This document shows positions 21,494-33,785 of a DNA stretch of 64,000 nucleotides, one piece after another (positions within the stretch are counted from its first letter, which is position 1; the number at the start of each line of letters is the position of its first letter). The stretch lies in IMG/VR virus record IMGVR_UViG_3300045988_005640; one strand, given 5' to 3'. The notes under the pieces were generated by a model. The model was given only the letters and a program-made list of their open reading frames with translations, searched no databases and was not told the origin of the DNA. A program made the position numbers and the translations under genes. The DNA is from a virus (taxonomy: Duplodnaviria; Heunggongvirae; Uroviricota; Caudoviricetes).

Positions 21494-29521
<8,028 letters not shown>

Positions 29522-29523
29522 TA

Positions 29524-30711
29524 ATGGCGGTAGGTGAAATTCAAATTAGTGCCTTGCCTCAAGCAGCCTTACCAATTGACCTTAGTGATATCTTCCATCT
29601 TAAGCAGGGTATTGAGGATAAGAGATGTACTCTTGAGCAATTACTTGCTCCACACTCAAGCCTAAGAAATAACCCTCATGGTGTTACTAAAACACAAATT
29701 GGTTTAGATAACGTTATCAATGCTCTTCAGTTAGTTGCTGCAAATAACTTATCAGACGTTACTAATGTAGCTCAGGCAAGAGCAAATCTACAGATTATGT
29801 CTTCAGAAGAGGTTAATAATCTTGTTCAACAGCATATTCAGGACAAGAGCAACCCACATAATACAACTAAGGCACAGGTAGGATTGAGTAATGTTCAGAA
29901 CTGGACAACATCTAACCTTTATAACGAAGATGCAGATAAGTATGCTACAGCAAGAGCAGTAAATAACTTGTACAAGGCTGTTCAGGCTTCCTATCCAGTA
30001 GGTACTATCCATCTTTCCATGAACTCTGCAAACCCTTCTACATATTTAATTTGTGGAGGTACTTGGGAGTTAGTTTCAAAGGGTAGAGCATTGGTTGGTT
30101 ATGACTCTGACACAAGACCAGCAGGTTCTGTATTTGGTGCTTCAACTGTCACTTTGTCAGTTAATAACATGCCTCAACACTCTCACTCTGTGTCTCTTAG
30201 TGGTGGTGGTCATACTCATAATGCAACTGTGTCAATTTCAGCTTTTGACTATGGAACTAAGACTACCAACTCTTTTGACTATGGAACTAAGACCACTAAC
30301 ACAACTGGTAACCATAACCATGTTGGTAGTGGGTCAACAAGTTCTGCTGGTGCTCATAACCACAGATTGACCTATGAAGCAGGCGGTGGCCTATCGGAAA
30401 GACCTGCAATGGTTTGGTCTACAAGGAATGACCAATCATGGTACTCAGCAGATGCTGTCTGTGAAGTAGCTGGTGCACACACCCACTCTTTCAGTGTTAC
30501 CACTAATACAACTGGTAACCACAACCATACAGTTGGTATTGGTGCTCACAGCCATACAGTTGGTATTGGTTCACATACACACAATGGCACTGTAACAGTT
30601 TCTTCTTCTGAGCATACGCATAGCGGGAACACTAACAGTGTTGGTGGTGGACAAGCTTTTAACATTGAGCAGCCATCCTTCGTACTGTATGTATGGCAGA
30701 GAACAGCTTAA
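29524..30711 (+). CDS. tail fibre protein with phage tail-collar domain and C-terminal His-X-His repeat region
   Basis: Tail-collar-like segment (PSTYLICGGTW..NNMPQHSHSV) followed by repeated GNHNH/AHTHS/AHSHT/SHTHN/EHTHS motifs; tandem FDYGTKTTN duplication. Confidence 0.7.
   Translation: MAVGEIQISALPQAALPIDLSDIFHLKQGIEDKRCTLEQLLAPHSSLRNNPHGVTKTQIGLDNVINALQLVAANNLSDVTNVAQARANLQIMSSEEVNNLVQQHIQDKSNPHNTTKAQVGLSNVQNWTTSNLYNEDADKYATARAVNNLYKAVQASYPVGTIHLSMNSANPSTYLICGGTWELVSKGRALVGYDSDTRPAGSVFGASTVTLSVNNMPQHSHSVSLSGGGHTHNATVSISAFDYGTKTTNSFDYGTKTTNTTGNHNHVGSGSTSSAGAHNHRLTYEAGGGLSERPAMVWSTRNDQSWYSADAVCEVAGAHTHSFSVTTNTTGNHNHTVGIGAHSHTVGIGSHTHNGTVTVSSSEHTHSGNTNSVGGGQAFNIEQPSFVLYVWQRTA
30241..30300 (+). 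repeat. tandem direct repeat, 2 x 30 bp (27/30 identical) inside the tail-fibre gene
   Basis: GCTTTTGACTATGGAACTAAGACTACCAAC / TCTTTTGACTATGGAACTAAGACCACTAAC, encoding AFDYGTKTTN-SFDYGTKTTN. Confidence 0.85.
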
Positions 30712-30720
30712 TTTCTTTAC

Positions 30721-30741
30721 AGGGGCTTGATAGCCCCTTTT
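30721..30741 (+). terminator. rho-independent terminator
   Basis: Stem AGGGGC/GCCCCT with loop TTGATA, then TTTT. Confidence 0.55.
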
Positions 30742-30757
30742 AAGAGGAAAATTTATA

Positions 30758-33139
30758 ATGGCAGATTACAAGTTGAGTGAATTAAACTCAATCGATACAA
30801 TCCGTTCAGACGACCTTCTTCATGTCAGGGTTAAAAAGAGACCTGAAATGCTGGGTGATGAAGACCGTCGAATGACCTATCAAGACTTCTTAGCATCTTT
30901 TAAACTTGAAAGATTTGTTCAGATTGCTGGTAGCACTATGGCGGGTGACTTAGGGATTGTTAAGCTACTTTATGGTGGTAAGGTAGTATTTGACCCTACA
31001 GGCTCTTCTGAGATTAATATTGGGGATGTTTTAAAGACTTTTAAAATTAACGCAAATGGTCTTAAACTAACTATTGCAGATGCTTCAAGGTCAGCAACTG
31101 TTTACCATACTCTGAATAAACCAAGTCCTAATGAGCTTGGGATGAGAACTAATGAAGAGAATGATGCGAGATACGCAAGGCTTGCTGTTACAAATAACTT
31201 CAGCATTAGACAAGCAATTGTAACTGATGGTGAGCAGTTAACCCTTAAGAAAGCAACCAATGCAGGTGCTTCATATATTCAAGGTAGGGATGCTAATAAC
31301 CAGCAAACTTGGTATGTTGGACAAGGAAATGCAAACAATACTAATGTCTATTTGTACAATCATGCCACTGGCTCAATGTTGACACTTGATGCAACAGCAT
31401 CGTTTAACAAGACACTAAGAGTTATGGGTCAAGTTCAACCTTCTGACTTCTCTAACTTAGATGCTAGGTACTTCACTCAGACAGTGGCTAATCAGAGATT
31501 TGCACAGTTAAATGCTAGTAATGTTCTTTATGGTGCTAATACATTTAAAAAAGATGTTGTATTTAACTCAGATATCCCTGTCATTCTTAAGAATCTAACA
31601 GCTAACAAACCATTATATATTCTAGGTAGAGATGACCAAAACTCCAACTTGTGGTTTGTTGGTAAAGGTGGTTCGGGGACAGAGATTAAATTTTATAACT
31701 ACTCTAGTGATACGGTTTTAGAGTTGTCTGAGACGGCAAGATTTAATAAAACTTTGAGGATTACTGGTCAAGTTCAACCTTCTGATTGGACTAACATTGA
31801 CTCTAGATACATTCCAGCAGCCACTTTGAGTAATCTTGCTAAACTTAATGTGGCAAACACTTTCGTGAATGTGCAGACTATCGTATCAAATAACGAAGGT
31901 TTAGTATTAAGAAACTTGACACAGGGGCAACCACTATATATCCGTGGTGTGGATACCGCGAACGTATCGAGGTGGTGGTTAGGTGTAGGTGGCGCAAACT
32001 CTAATGTGGTAACCTTAAACAATAGTTACTCTGGTACTCAAATTGCCCTTGAACCATCAGCAATTGTTGCGAATAAGAATTTAGCCATTACTGGTAAAGT
32101 TCAACCTTCTGATTGGTCTAACTTAGATGCTAGATATTTTGTTAAAACTCAGTTATTAAACCAATCTTTAATGACTGTCTCTGTAGATAACCTTGGAAAC
32201 CCTTCAGGTTTTAATCTTGGATATTCAGGTTTTGTCAGAAACAATGCGGTTACTAGTGGACTGAAAGAATTGGCAATTCATGTTGCGCACTCTAATAAGA
32301 CTGCTGCACATGCAAGAGGAATCTCTTTTGTGTATGGCTCAAATGGACTGGCAACATTTACCTATGCCTATGACAAAAATGGTGACTATGCTGGAGAAGC
32401 ACAGATTTATACAACTGATTTTAAACCAACCCCTTCAGATATTGGTGCATACACTAAAGCTGAAACTGACCAGAAGATTGCACAGGCAGTAAGTGACTCT
32501 ACAGACCTTAACAAAATCTATCCAGTAGGTATTGTAACGTGGTTTAACAGTAACGTTAACCCTAATACAGCACTTCCTGGTCTAACTTGGACGTACCTGA
32601 ACAATGGTGTTGGTAGAACTATCAGGATTGCAGCAGCAAATGGTTCAGATGTTGCTACAACAGGTGGTTCAGACTCTGTGACGTTAGCTGTTGGTAACTT
32701 ACCTTCACACACTCATAGCTTCTCTGCTACCACTTCATCTTTTGATTATGGTACGAAGAGCACTAATAGTACTGGTGGTCATACTCACTCTGTAAGTGGT
32801 ACAACAAGTGCTGCTGGTAACCACGCTCACCACTTAGGTCTGCTATTGGTTAATGGTGGTGATGCTCAGTACGGTTATACAACTGTTAGCAATAACAAGA
32901 CAAGAACTCTTGACTGGCTTGACAGAACTGATAACAAATTCCCTAACACTAACACAACTGGTAACCATACACACACATGGTCTGGTACTACAAGTAACAC
33001 TGGTGCTCACACCCACTCTGTAGGTATCGGTGCTCACACTCATACAGTTAGTGGTAACACTGGTGGTACAGGTTCTGGTTCAGCATTTAGTGTTACTAAC
33101 CAGTTCTACAAGTTAATGGCTTGGGTAAGAACTGCTTAA
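30758..33139 (+). CDS. long tail fibre protein with three internal domain repeats, tail-collar domain and C-terminal His-X-His repeats
   Basis: 793 aa; three copies of ..FNKTLR(V/I)xGQVQPSD(F/W)(S/T)N(L/I)D(A/S)RY..; tail-collar-like [11 protein letters not shown]; HTHS/NHAHH/NHTHT/AHTHS/AHTHT repeats; same C-terminal ending (..WVRTA / ..WQRTA) as the upstream fibre. Confidence 0.75.
31380..32160 (+). repeat. three tandem intragenic repeats (period about 340 bp) in the long tail-fibre gene
   Basis: Repeat cores start near 31400, 31738 and 32075 (GTTCAACCTTCTGA(C/T)T..). Confidence 0.7.
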
Positions 33140-33218
33140 TCCCTTGTTGACTGATTGTTGAGATGGTGTTAATATTCTTTATGGGTATTCTCACCATCTT
33201 GGCTGATGAGGTGATTAA

Positions 33219-33413
33219 ATGCCTACAATCCTAGCAATTCTTCTAAAAAATCTAGGTAGCTTCTTCTGGAAACTCATTTTATCCCTTCTAAGTGAATACA
33301 TGATTGAGAAAGTGTTCTTTAAGCTTGCAAGACACCTTGCGAGTAAAACAGACACACCTATTGATGATGAGTTCGTAGATAACTTAGAAAAAGCTTTTAA
33401 GGGGGAGAAATAA
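33219..33413 (+). CDS. hypothetical small hydrophobic protein (holin-like?)
   Basis: 64 aa, hydrophobic N-terminus and charged C-terminus; no endolysin found nearby. Confidence 0.4.
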   Translation: MPTILAILLKNLGSFFWKLILSLLSEYMIEKVFFKLARHLASKTDTPIDDEFVDNLEKAFKGEK

Positions 33414-33785
33414 ATGAAGTGGCTAGAGGAAGCTTTTAAAAATAATATTGGTGCAATTGTAGTTGGTATTTTTAGTGTTATTGGGATGTATACCACGATG
33501 CAGGTTTCAAGTGGTAAACAAGAAGTGTCTGTCACAACAAAGTTACAGCAGCTAGATAATTATTCCAAAAGTAACTATTCAGCTATTCGTGATTTACAGT
33601 CTGACATGAGACTGATTCAGCTAGGGATGGAGAACCAGAAAGTTCAGTTAGAGAATGTTAAGGGTGAAAACGCAAAACTTACCAAAACTCTTGATAAATT
33701 CTCTGACAGTGTGAATAATCTGGCTCAATCAGTATCAGCCCTCCAAGCTATTACTGAAAAGAACACAAAGAATACTGAAAAATAA
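33414..33785 (+). CDS. hypothetical membrane protein with coiled-coil C-terminus (lysis-associated or spanin-like?)
   Basis: 123 aa; one N-terminal TM-like segment (IGAIVVGIFSVIGMYTTM) then a predicted coiled coil. Confidence 0.45.
   Translation: MKWLEEAFKNNIGAIVVGIFSVIGMYTTMQVSSGKQEVSVTTKLQQLDNYSKSNYSAIRDLQSDMRLIQLGMENQKVQLENVKGENAKLTKTLDKFSDSVNNLAQSVSALQAITEKNTKNTEK

What the first reader, a model, noticed from the sequence alone, without database searches (positions are those of the whole stretch)
29524..33139. Two tail-fibre proteins with tail-collar domains and long C-terminal His-X-His repeat tracts
Both fibre genes end with a tail-collar-like segment (NMPQHSHS / NLPSHTHS) followed by many spaced HxH motifs (GNHNH, AHTHS, AHSHT, SHTHN, NHTHT) and near-identical C-termini. 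Spaced HxH repeats are the metal-coordinating signature of some phage fibre tip domains (T4 gp37 and gp12). A 2 x 30-bp tandem duplication at 30241-30300 (FDYGTKTTN twice) and shared repeat cassettes between the two genes suggest ongoing recombination at the receptor-binding end.
Basis: partly seen in the sequence, partly recalled or inferred. Interest (0 to 1): 0.45.

Follow-up and report, generated by a model that had tools for sequence, protein, structure and literature searches.

The report
Felix O1-type phage fibres, T4-like tips
These are the short and long side tail fibres of a Felix O1-like phage, each ending in the already described T4 gp37-type metal-stapled needle with a swappable receptor-binding head, so the finding is real but ordinary.

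Summary
ORF1 (29524-30711, 395 aa) and ORF2 (30758-33139, 793 aa) are the short and long side fibres of a Felixounavirus, syntenic with Bas63 gp26 and gp27. Both C-terminal parts match the solved T4 gp37 tip (2XGF, E=5e-26 and 6.5e-20). ORF1 has 9 HxH motifs and ORF2 has 6; shuffled sequences give about 1.4 and 0.4. Seven ORF1 motifs align one-for-one with T4's seven iron-binding HxH motifs, with matching spacing.

This collar-needle-head architecture was published for Bas63 in 2025 and the gp37 homology for VpaE1 in 2015, so it is already known.

- The C-termini are about 41% identical, not near-identical.
- The 2x30-bp FDYGTKTTN doublet is fixed at two copies in all 24 relatives and also occurs in T4.
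- The repeats shared between the two genes are only motif codons.

Recombination at the tip is still supported, by other evidence. The central head cassette is either at least 93% or at most 21% identical across relatives whose baseplate is 94-99% identical. The window's long-fibre tip shares a 316-nt tract (87% DNA, 90% protein identity) with a T4-like phage's gp37. Trimer structure and metal content could not be tested.

The parts
29219..29521 (+). 100-aa homologue of Bas63 gp25, the baseplate platform to which the long fibre attaches
   Evidence: 99% identical to Bas63 gp25 and in the same gene order. The role is taken from PMC12609058. PHROG 4141 has no annotated function.
29524..30711 (+). 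ORF1, the short side fibre (homologue of Bas63 gp26, Sf14 gp52 and VpaE1 gp74), 395 aa
   Evidence: for the ORF. PHROG 2097 tail fibre, E=1e-136. 74.6% identical to Bas63 gp26. 2XGF match E=5e-26.
29524..29943 (+). ORF1 aa 1-140: conserved N-terminal baseplate-binding and helical shaft part, with an internal repeat NPHGVTKTQIGLDNV / NPHNTTKAQVGLSNV
   Evidence: 91-100% identical in 22 of 23 relatives and 81% in L015. Helices are predicted. The baseplate-binding role is inferred from Bas63.
29944..30177 (+). ORF1 aa 141-218: collar domain (T4 gp37 D10 / gp10 C-terminal fold)
   Evidence: Pfam Gp10_C 67.5 bits. Matches T4 gp10 structures 2FKK and 5HX2 and the 2XGF collar. This is the best-modelled part of the AF2 model, pLDDT 84-87.
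30178..30363 (+). ORF1 aa 219-280: ascending needle strand with 4 HxH motifs and two 10-aa FDYGTKTTN units
   Evidence: His 230/232, 264/266 and 278/280 align with T4 883/885, 915/917 and 929/931. 219/221 is an extra motif at the collar exit, 96-98% conserved.
30241..30300 (+). 2 x 30-nt in-frame tandem repeat encoding (A/S)FDYGTKTTN twice
   Evidence: Exactly two units in all 24 relatives. T4 gp37 has [19 protein letters not shown] at the same place.
30364..30477 (+). ORF1 aa 281-318: head (tip) cassette, the hypervariable putative receptor-binding end where the chain turns back
   Evidence: Aligns with the T4 tip subdomain 932-959. Identity to relatives is 95-97% in 4 loci and 11-21% in 19 loci. 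7 head types were found among the short fibres. This type occurs only in Felixounavirus records.
30478..30639 (+). ORF1 aa 319-372: descending needle strand with 5 HxH motifs
   Evidence: 319/321, 333/335, 342/344 and 351/353 align with T4 966/968, 980/982, 989/991 and 998/1000. 364/366 is extra.
30513..30570 (+). 2 x 27-nt tandem repeat encoding the 9-aa units (VGIGAHSHT / VGIGSHTHN); the returning-strand partner of the 30-nt tandem
   Evidence: TRF. The count of 9-aa-spaced HxH pairs equals the count of DYGxK units in nearly all complete fibres examined.
30640..30711 (+). ORF1 aa 373-395 plus stop: C-terminal strand that closes the collar (...QAFNIEQPSFVLYVWQRTA)
   Evidence: 78-100% conserved in 22 of 23 relatives and 61% in L015. 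It resembles the T4 gp37 end ...IAFNYIVRLA, which belongs to collar D10 1010-1026. The structural assignment is inferred.
30758..33139 (+). ORF2, the long side fibre (homologue of Bas63 gp27, Sf14 gp53 and VpaE1 gp75), 793 aa
   Evidence: for the ORF. PHROG 4277 tail fibre, 1242 bits. 60.8% identical to Bas63 gp27.
31148..32497 (+). ORF2 aa 131-580: shaft with three gp37_trimer-type repeat domains, mosaic between phages
   Evidence: Pfam gp37_trimer x3, E=5e-66. 78-nt DNA repeat family at 31394, 31733 and 32060. Segment identities switch between about 45% and about 95% independently of each other. aa 158-225 weakly resemble the T7 gp17 tip 4A0T.
32498..32707 (+). ORF2 aa 581-650: collar domain
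   Evidence: Gp10_C 23.2 bits, below threshold. Aligns with the ORF1 collar. 93-100% conserved in 20 of 21 relatives and 66% in L015.
32708..32833 (+). ORF2 aa 651-692: ascending needle strand with 3 HxH motifs and one [10 protein letters not shown] unit
32834..32965 (+). ORF2 aa 693-736: head (tip) cassette
   Evidence: 93-100% identical in 3 loci and 5-16% in 18 loci. 8 head types were found among the long fibres.
32966..33139 (+). ORF2 aa 737-793 plus stop: descending needle strand (3 HxH motifs) and collar-closing C-terminal strand
   Evidence: Pfam Phage_fiber repeat at aa 756-768, 22 bits against a cut-off of 20. The last 23 aa are 100% conserved in 19 of 21 relatives.
32733..33048 (+). 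316-nt tract shared with gp37 of the T4-like phage AV122 (87% DNA, 90% protein identity); begins in the SFDYGTK unit and ends in [10 protein letters not shown]

Best explanation
ORF1 and ORF2 are the short and long side tail fibres of a Felix O1-like myovirus (genus Felixounavirus). Each is expected to form a homotrimer. The conserved N-terminus docks on the baseplate and the C-terminus is a T4 gp37-type receptor-binding tip.

In that tip the chain leaves a collar domain and runs outward as one strand of a thin needle. It turns at a small head domain and runs back, and its last roughly 20 residues close the collar. Three chains therefore make a six-stranded needle. Each HxH motif from the three chains would give six histidines that hold one metal ion on the fibre axis. 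In T4 the metal is iron. This predicts about 9 metal sites in the short fibre and about 6 in the long fibre. The metal ions act as internal staples, not as a catalytic or receptor-binding site.

Needle length is set in steps. Each 10-residue DYGTK unit on the outgoing strand is matched by one 9-residue G-x-H-x-H unit on the returning strand.

The head between the two strands is the host-specificity determinant. It is exchanged as a cassette by homologous recombination through the conserved motif-coding flanks. Exchange occurs between related phages, between the two fibre genes of one genome in some relatives, and with T4-like phages.

What is shown and what is inferred:
- Shown here: homology to the solved structure, motif alignment and spacing, conservation of the histidines, cassette-like variation, and the tract shared with a T4-like phage.
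- Inferred: trimer geometry, which metal is bound, the receptors (probably LPS core structures, as reported for relatives), and sequential use of the long fibre and then the short fibre.
For: - Genome identity: megablast gives 254 phage records, nearly all Felixounavirus or Felix O1-like, the best at 96%. Gene order and neighbours are 96-99% identical to Bas63 gp23-25 and gp28-29.
- Homology to the solved T4 gp37 tip 2XGF: ORF1 aa 146-367 E=5e-26 and ORF2 aa 649-772 E=6.5e-20. The collar also matches T4 gp10. Pfam gives Gp10_C, gp37_trimer x3 and Phage_fiber.
- HxH enrichment: 9 and 6 motifs against 1.4 and 0.43 in shuffles, with 0 of 5000 shuffles reaching the observed count.
- HxH spacing: ORF1 is 34,14 | head | 14,9,9 and T4 is 32,14 | head | 14,9,9. 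ORF1 H278/H280 align with T4 H929/H931, which were shown experimentally to bind iron and to be essential.
- Conservation: across 49 homologues down to 30% identity, motif histidines are 87% conserved, other needle residues 47% and the head 16%.
- Published structure: cryo-EM and AlphaFold 3 work on Bas63 describes exactly this collar-needle-head architecture with HxH motifs for gp26 and gp27 (PMC12609058).
- Cassette behaviour: baseplate J is 94-99% identical in most relatives, while head identity is either at least 93% or at most 21%.
- Exchange: the same head occurs in both fibres of L012, L013 and L025, as a 200-nt tract at 91% in L025. The window's long-fibre tip is 90% identical over 107 aa, and 87% over 316 nt, to Tequatrovirus AV122 gp37.
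- Unit pairing: 1/1, 2/2, 3/3 and 4/4 in nearly all complete fibres examined.
Against: - No trimer prediction or coordinates could be obtained. The AF2 monomer model is poor (pLDDT 63, pTM 0.27) and Foldseek found nothing at E<=0.001.
- Metal occupancy and identity are untested. Two of the nine ORF1 motifs (219/221 and 364/366) have no T4 counterpart, so their metal binding is extrapolated.
- T4 gp37 needs the chaperone gp38, and no gp38 homologue is in the window. Assembly must therefore differ in some respect.
- No receptor data exist for this phage.
- Only 24 loci and about 70 cluster representatives were analysed for variation, and no formal recombination test was run.
Confidence: 0.9

Rival explanations
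1. The 2 x 30-bp tandem at 30241-30300 is a recent, unstable duplication. On this view it is a repeat-number switch that currently varies in the population and alters host range.
For: The two copies are 27/30 identical at the DNA level, the highest value among the phages compared. More distant lineages carry 3 or 4 units. Glycine codons tend to match between the two copies within a genome, a weak hint of occasional gene conversion.
Against: All 24 related loci have exactly two units. The 13 closest cluster representatives all have the same 395-aa length. T4 gp37 has the same doublet. Mean within-genome copy identity (23.4/30) is barely above between-genome identity (22.0/30). A change in unit number would require a matched change on the returning strand, so a single slippage event should be disfavoured.
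Confidence: 0.03
2. The histidine tracts are not structural metal staples. They would instead be a catalytic or sensing site, for example a metal-dependent glycan-modifying site or a pH sensor, or simply low-complexity sequence.
For: Metal binding was not measured here. Some database sources name homologues 'microcystin-dependent protein'.
Against: There is direct residue-by-residue homology to the T4 needle, where these histidines coordinate axial iron and are needed for folding. The exact 14/9/9 spacing and the preceding glycines are conserved. No enzyme family is hit in Pfam or PHROGs. The variable middle residue of HxH is only 27-59% conserved, which fits a geometric rather than a catalytic role.
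Confidence: 0.03
3. The two fibres are parallel alternatives and not sequential partners. Each tip would independently recognise a different receptor or host type, broadening host range, instead of the long fibre making first contact and the short fibre locking on afterwards.
For: The two heads in this window are unrelated. The heads assort independently among relatives: L018 shares the window's short-fibre head but not its long-fibre head. Sf14 authors suggest the two fibres may bind different receptors. In some relatives both fibres carry the same head, which fits poorly with a two-step, two-receptor scheme.
Against: Both fibres are present on every virion at different radial and length positions (430 and 630 Angstrom), as in T4 where long and short fibres act in sequence. 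No adsorption data are available to decide.
Confidence: 0.35

Closest known systems
T4 gp37 long tail fibre receptor-binding tip (PDB 2XGF; domains D10 and D11)
   Same: Collar, a needle that runs out and back, and a central tip. The seven HxH motifs of T4 align with seven of ORF1's nine and five of ORF2's six at the same spacing. The DYGTK doublet and the 9-aa VGIGxHxHT units are shared. The C-terminal strand resembles T4's.
   Different: ORF1 has two extra HxH motifs at the needle base. ORF2's needle is one unit shorter on each strand. The head sequences are unrelated to T4's. The tip sits on much shorter single-protein fibres (395 and 793 aa, against 1026 aa as one of four fibre proteins in T4). 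No gp38 chaperone gene is in the window.
Bas63 (JohannRWettstein) short fibre gp26 and long fibre gp27, cryo-EM, PMC12609058
   Same: Orthologous genes in identical synteny. The neighbours are 96-99% identical. The same collar-needle-head description with HxH motifs applies. The long fibre has 6 HxH motifs plus an adjacent extra His.
   Different: ORF1 is only 74.6% and ORF2 60.8% identical. Bas63 gp26 has a different tip type (2+5 HxH, three DYG units) from the window's (4+5 HxH, two units). The heads differ, and the window's long fibre has HxHH where Bas63 has HHxH.
VpaE1 gp74/gp75 and Sf14 gp52/gp53 (Ounavirinae fibre pairs)
   Same: The same two-gene arrangement and sizes (390 and 784-807 aa; 391 and 792 aa). 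Homology to the T4 gp37 adhesin was reported in 2015. LPS outer core is reported or proposed as the receptor.
   Different: The head cassettes differ. The VpaE1 long-fibre head is T4-tip-like (YIEAWNGTG...) and the window's is AV122-like.
gp37 of Tequatrovirus AV122 (OR352952)
   Same: aa 919-1025 are 90% identical to ORF2 aa 658-764, including the head. The DNA is 87% identical over 316 nt.
   Different: The rest of the protein and genome is unrelated. AV122 has three DYGTK units and five descending HxH motifs, and it is followed by a T4-type gp38 chaperone gene.
T4 gp10 C-terminal domain and gp12 short fibre collar-type domains
   Same: The collar of ORF1 matches gp10 structures (2FKK, 5HX2; E about 1e-5) and Pfam Gp10_C. 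From my own knowledge, gp12 has an HxH zinc site in its receptor-binding domain.
   Different: No gp12 structure was matched by sequence. gp10 is a baseplate protein without a needle.

Membership tests
T4 gp37-type receptor-binding tip (collar-needle-head, 2XGF) | Significant sequence homology to the solved tip across collar and needle | tested here: met
   ORF1 aa 146-367 E=5e-26. ORF2 aa 649-772 E=6.5e-20, needle only. The ORF2 collar is linked through ORF1.
T4 gp37-type receptor-binding tip (collar-needle-head, 2XGF) | HxH motifs at the positions and spacing of the iron-binding motifs of T4 | tested here: met
   Seven of the nine ORF1 motifs and five of the six ORF2 motifs align with T4 motifs. 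Spacing is 34,14|14,9,9 against 32,14|14,9,9 in T4.
T4 gp37-type receptor-binding tip (collar-needle-head, 2XGF) | A variable tip subdomain between the ascending and descending stem strands | tested here: met
   The insert at ORF1 281-318 and ORF2 693-736 aligns with the T4 tip 932-959. It is 16% conserved, against 47% for the needle.
T4 gp37-type receptor-binding tip (collar-needle-head, 2XGF) | Homotrimer with an interwoven six-stranded needle and axial His6-metal sites | not testable with these tools
   Only monomer AF2 was available, giving pLDDT 63 and no significant fold match. Cryo-EM and AF3 evidence exists for the Bas63 orthologues.
T4 gp37-type receptor-binding tip (collar-needle-head, 2XGF) | Dependence on a gp38-type chaperone encoded next to the fibre gene | tested here: not met
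   tblastn of AV122 gp38 (98.9% identical to T4 gp38) against the window gives a best E of 0.22. None of the 30 spread-sampled gp38 matches in the phage collection is an 84-90 kb genome. gp57A was not tested.
Felixounavirus short fibre (Bas63 gp26) and long fibre (Bas63 gp27) | Orthology by synteny and full-length similarity | tested here: met
   The gene order matches gp23-gp29. Full-length alignments are 74.6% and 60.8% identical.
Pfam PF07484 Phage Tail Collar domain | Match to the family profile | tested here: not met
   No hit at E<=0.1 for either protein. The structurally related Gp10_C PF21939 is hit instead, at 67.5 bits in ORF1 and 23.2 bits in ORF2 against a cut-off of 27.
Pfam PF03335 Phage tail fibre repeat (GxHxH unit) | Match above the gathering score | tested here: inconclusive
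   ORF2 aa 756-768 scores 22.0 bits against a cut-off of 20. ORF1 is not reported at E<=0.1 although it carries the same motif.
Hypervariable tandem-repeat (contingency-type) locus | Repeat copy number differs among close relatives | tested here: not met
   All 24 loci have two FDYGTK units, and close homologues keep a constant 395-aa length. Different unit numbers occur only in divergent tip types.

The most novel reading that the evidence does not exclude
Three observations made here may not yet be in the literature.

1. The long-fibre tip of this Felix O1-like phage is a module recently shared with T4-like phages (316 nt at 87% identity; window 32733-33048). Its ends fall in the DYGTK and GxHxH motif codons. 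gp37-type heads would therefore travel between unrelated myovirus families, and this phage may recognise the same receptor as a Tequatrovirus. That receptor could be a porin such as OmpC instead of LPS only.
2. Such a tip is built here without a detectable gp38-type chaperone gene in this window.
3. Needle length follows a strict rule: one outgoing 10-aa DYGTK unit for each returning 9-aa HxH unit. This constrains how these repeats can expand.
Probability: 0.3. Interest if true: 0.4.

Novelty: already known. Interest (0 to 1): 0.15.

Why it matters
The fibres decide which bacteria a Felix O1-type phage can infect, and these phages are used for Salmonella and E. coli typing, biocontrol and therapy. 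The architecture is already published, so this window adds no new kind of system. Its practical value is a map of the exchangeable part (ORF1 aa 281-318 and ORF2 aa 693-736, bounded by conserved motif codons). That map is useful for host-range prediction and for engineering head swaps. The link to T4-like gp37 tips suggests that receptor knowledge could be transferred between phage families.

Tried and rejected
- **AF2 structure prediction** of full-length ORF1 as a monomer with a 49-sequence alignment gave pLDDT 63 and pTM 0.27. Only the collar was confident.
- **Foldseek against the PDB** gave no match at E<=0.001. The top weak hits were gp10 and the Bizionia C24 tip. This is uninformative, as expected for one chain of an interwoven trimer. 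No trimer prediction was possible, and I did not use the second prediction job because it would have the same limitation.
- **Primary papers not available:** the T4 gp37 tip structure paper (PMC2996694) and the T4 fibre review (PMC5899708) are not held. T4 residue numbering was taken from Islam 2019.
- **'His box' literature search** found no paper using the term. The idea that conserved GxHxH-coding 'His boxes' act as recombination sites in T-even gp37 (Tetart, Desplats and Krisch, J Mol Biol 1998) therefore rests on my own knowledge.
- **Recent gene conversion between ORF1 and ORF2 in this genome** was considered and rejected. The best tract is 76% over 71 nt.
- **The FDYGTKTTN doublet as a recent duplication** was considered and rejected.
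- **A gp38-like chaperone** was searched for and not found in the window.
- **Bas63 accession:** two guesses were wrong before MZ501086 was found.


Full report
**What is there**

The window is part of a Felix O1-like myovirus genome (genus Felixounavirus).
- A megablast of 29219-33600 finds 254 phage records, nearly all Felixounavirus or Felix O1-like phages of Escherichia, Salmonella, Shigella and Citrobacter. The best hits are 96% identical.
- They follow a Baseplate_J homologue (26881-28350), a second wedge protein (28353-29219) and a 100-aa protein (29219-29521).
- They are followed by two small genes. The coding strand then switches, with thymidylate synthase and dihydrofolate reductase on the minus strand.
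- This is the gene order of phage Bas63 (JohannRWettstein, MZ501086) from gp23 to gp31. The flanking proteins are 96-99% identical to Bas63 gp23, gp24, gp25, gp28 and gp29. ORF1 is 74.6% identical to gp26 and ORF2 is 60.8% identical to gp27.

**Checking the observation**

The parts that hold:
- ORF1 has nine HxH motifs and ORF2 has six. Shuffled versions of the same proteins average 1.4 and 0.43, and none of 5000 shuffles reaches the observed number.
- NMPQHSHS and NLPSHTHS are present.
- The 2 x 30-nt tandem at 30241-30300 is real and in frame, and encodes AFDYGTKTTN-SFDYGTKTTN.

The parts that are overstated:
- The C-termini are not near-identical. About 9 of the last 22 residues match, and the two C-terminal regions are 35% identical overall.
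- The repeats shared between the two genes are 20-50 nt at 62-87% identity, which are simply the codons of the GxHxH and DYGTK motifs. The best inter-gene blastn tract is 76% over 71 nt.
- Pfam's Collar family is not hit. The structurally related Gp10_C family is hit, clearly in ORF1 and below threshold in ORF2.

**What it is**

Both C-terminal parts match the crystal structure of the T4 long tail fibre tip, gp37 residues 785-1026 (PDB 2XGF). ORF1 aa 146-367 matches at E=5e-26 and ORF2 aa 649-772 at E=6.5e-20. The ORF1 collar also matches T4 gp10 structures.

In T4 the layout is as follows (Islam 2019):

| T4 gp37 element | Residues |
|---|---|
| Collar (D10) | 811-881 and 1010-1026 |
| Stem of the needle | 882-931 and 960-1009 |
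| Tip | 932-959 |

Seven iron ions lie along the needle, and H929 and H931 are iron ligands essential for function.

Through the alignment, the ORF1 motifs map onto T4 like this:

| ORF1 His pair | T4 His pair |
|---|---|
| 230/232 | 883/885 |
| 264/266 | 915/917 |
| 278/280 | 929/931 |
| 319/321 | 966/968 |
| 333/335 | 980/982 |
| 342/344 | 989/991 |
| 351/353 | 998/1000 |

- The spacing is almost the same: ORF1 is 34,14 | head | 14,9,9 and T4 is 32,14 | head | 14,9,9.
- ORF1 has two further motifs at the base of the needle, 219/221 at the collar exit and 364/366 on the way back.
- ORF2 is one unit shorter on each strand, with spacing 24,14 | head | 14,9.
- Across 49 homologues reaching down to 30% identity, the motif histidines are 87% conserved on average. 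Other needle residues are 47% conserved and the central insert 16%.
- ORF2's shaft carries three gp37_trimer repeat domains and a weak resemblance to the T7 gp17 tip region.

**Already published**

- The 2025 cryo-EM study of Bas63 describes a 430-Angstrom short fibre (gp26) and a 630-Angstrom long fibre (gp27).
[quoted passage not shown] The chain doubles back at the head.
- It also notes high variability of the tips across the genus.
- The Sf14 study describes the same two fibres in a sister genus and notes the lack of Mu-type chaperones.
- The VpaE1 paper reported in 2015 that both fibre proteins are homologous to the T4 gp37 adhesin.

**The tandem duplication**

- All 24 related loci have exactly two FDYGTK units at this position. 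The 13 closest cluster representatives all have the same 395-aa length.
- T4 gp37 has the same doublet, [19 protein letters not shown]. It is an old structural repeat, not a recent or unstable duplication.
- It has a partner. Tandem Repeats Finder also reports a 2 x 27-nt repeat at 30513-30570 on the returning strand, encoding VGIGAHSHT and VGIGSHTHN.
- In nearly all complete fibres examined, the number of DYGxK units on the outgoing strand equals the number of HxH pairs spaced exactly 9 residues apart on the returning strand. The one apparent exception, the L015 long fibre, looks like a motif variant missed by the search pattern.

| DYGxK units | 9-aa-spaced HxH pairs | Found in |
|---|---|---|
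| 1 | 1 | the long fibres |
| 2 | 2 | ORF1, 19 related short fibres and T4 gp37 |
| 3 | 3 | Bas63 gp26, L006, L011 and AV122 gp37 |
| 4 | 4 | the L015 short fibre |

Unit number does vary, but only between divergent tip types, and it changes on both strands together.

**Recombination at the tip**

- Baseplate J is 94-99% identical in 23 of the 24 loci and 85% in L015. The fibres range from 52% to 98%, and the two fibres vary independently.
- Segment by segment, the central insert behaves as a cassette:

| Segment | Close to the window | Unrelated to the window |
|---|---|---|
| ORF1 aa 281-318 | 95-97% identical in 4 loci | 11-21% identical in 19 loci |
| ORF2 aa 693-736 | 93-100% identical in 3 loci | 5-16% identical in 18 loci |

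- The ORF2 collar stays 93-100% identical and its last 23 residues 96-100% identical, except in the most divergent locus L015 (66% and 87%). The ORF1 collar and C-terminal end are 79-100% and 78-100% identical, again apart from L015.
- The 24 loci hold 7 short-fibre and 8 long-fibre head types.
- In L012, L013 and L025 the two fibres of one phage carry the same head. In L025 the heads are 100% identical in protein and lie in a 200-nt tract at 91% DNA identity. Heads therefore do move between the two paralogues, though not recently in this window.
- The ORF2 shaft is also mosaic, as the Bas63 authors noted.

**A link to T4-like phages**

- The window's short-fibre head type occurs only in Felixounavirus records: 32 records at 92% identity or more, with the next best a VR7 gp37 at 48%.
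- The long-fibre head type also occurs in about 167-kb T4-like phages.
- ORF2 aa 658-764 is 90% identical to gp37 aa 919-1025 of Tequatrovirus AV122, with no other similarity between the proteins.
- At the DNA level the shared tract is 316 nt at 87% identity (window 32733-33048). It begins in the SFDYGTK unit and ends in [10 protein letters not shown].
- The VpaE1 and L009 long-fibre heads are close to the T4 tip sequence itself.
- The conserved motif codons therefore look like the crossover points. From my own knowledge, this is the mechanism proposed for the 'His boxes' of T-even gp37 by Tetart, Desplats and Krisch (1998). I could not retrieve that paper.
- AV122 gp37 is followed by a gp38 chaperone 98.9% identical to T4's. 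The window has no detectable gp38 homologue.

**Mechanism, and how sure**

- I am about 90% confident that both proteins are trimeric side fibres whose tips are gp37-type needles held together by axial His6-metal sites, with a swappable head that determines receptor specificity.
- Shown here: homology, motif alignment, conservation, cassette variation and the shared tract.
- Inferred: trimer geometry, the metal (iron by analogy with T4), the receptors (LPS core by analogy with VpaE1 and Bas63), and the order in which the fibres act.
- The monomer structure model was too poor to test the geometry.

**Verdict**

This is a correct reading of an ordinary, already described feature, so interest is low. 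The cross-family tract, the missing gp38 and the unit-pairing rule are modest additions that may or may not be new.

Noticed in passing
window 29129-29157 (inside 28353-29219): A 9-nt tandem (GGTGATTAT) gives GGDYGDYG in the wedge protein (Bas63 gp24 homologue). The window's protein is 288 aa, but it is 284-285 aa in all 24 relatives, which have a single GDY (or GAY). This is a real repeat-copy difference specific to this phage among those compared.
   Followed up: partly
window 30241-30300 and 30513-30570; loci L001-L026, L030: The number of 10-aa DYGxK units on the outgoing needle strand equals the number of 9-aa-spaced HxH pairs on the returning strand in nearly all complete fibres examined (1/1, 2/2, 3/3, 4/4), including T4 and AV122 gp37. 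Needle length therefore changes in paired steps.
   Followed up: partly
L025 (short fibre nt 748-947 and long fibre nt 1990-2189 of the genes); also L012 and L013: In these relatives the short and long fibres carry the same head cassette. In L025 the heads are 100% identical in protein and lie in a 200-nt tract at 91% DNA identity, which indicates exchange between the two paralogues.
   Followed up: partly
L001 (VpaE1) and L009, long-fibre head: The head sequence YIEAWNGTG(R/A)GG(D/S)KMSSYAV(S/A)YR(T/A)[10 protein letters not shown] is close to the T4 gp37 tip subdomain [34 protein letters not shown]. VpaE1 infects E. coli B, whose LPS T4 also uses.
   Followed up: no
window 31148-32497 (ORF2 aa 131-580): The shaft repeat modules of the long fibre are mosaic. 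Neighbouring segments switch independently between about 45% and about 95% identity among relatives. For example, L020 is 94% identical in aa 131-240 but 36-48% in the rest of the shaft. The Bas63 authors also remarked on this.
   Followed up: partly
window 29671-29715 and 29851-29895 (ORF1 aa 50-64 and 110-124): An internal repeat, NPHGVTKTQIGLDNV / NPHNTTKAQVGLSNV, lies in the N-terminal shaft of the short fibre. Many PHROG tail-protein families match this region.
   Followed up: no
L017 and L022, long-fibre gene: The long-fibre ORF is truncated to 541 aa and 453 aa in these two viral contigs, so the tip is missing from the first ORF. This may be a frameshift, an assembly error or a split gene.
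   Followed up: no
window 33219-33785 and about 33800 onward: Two small genes (64 and 123 aa, PHROGs 402 and 4038, no annotated function) follow the fibres. Their N-terminal stretches look hydrophobic by eye, and some records annotate one of them as holin. The coding strand and GC skew then flip at about 34 kb, with thymidylate synthase and dihydrofolate reductase on the minus strand.
   Followed up: no
KT184316.1 (phage XTG1), region matching window 29219-33600: The XTG1 record annotates a 'cos site' within or next to the region matching the fibre genes. I did not examine it.
   Followed up: no
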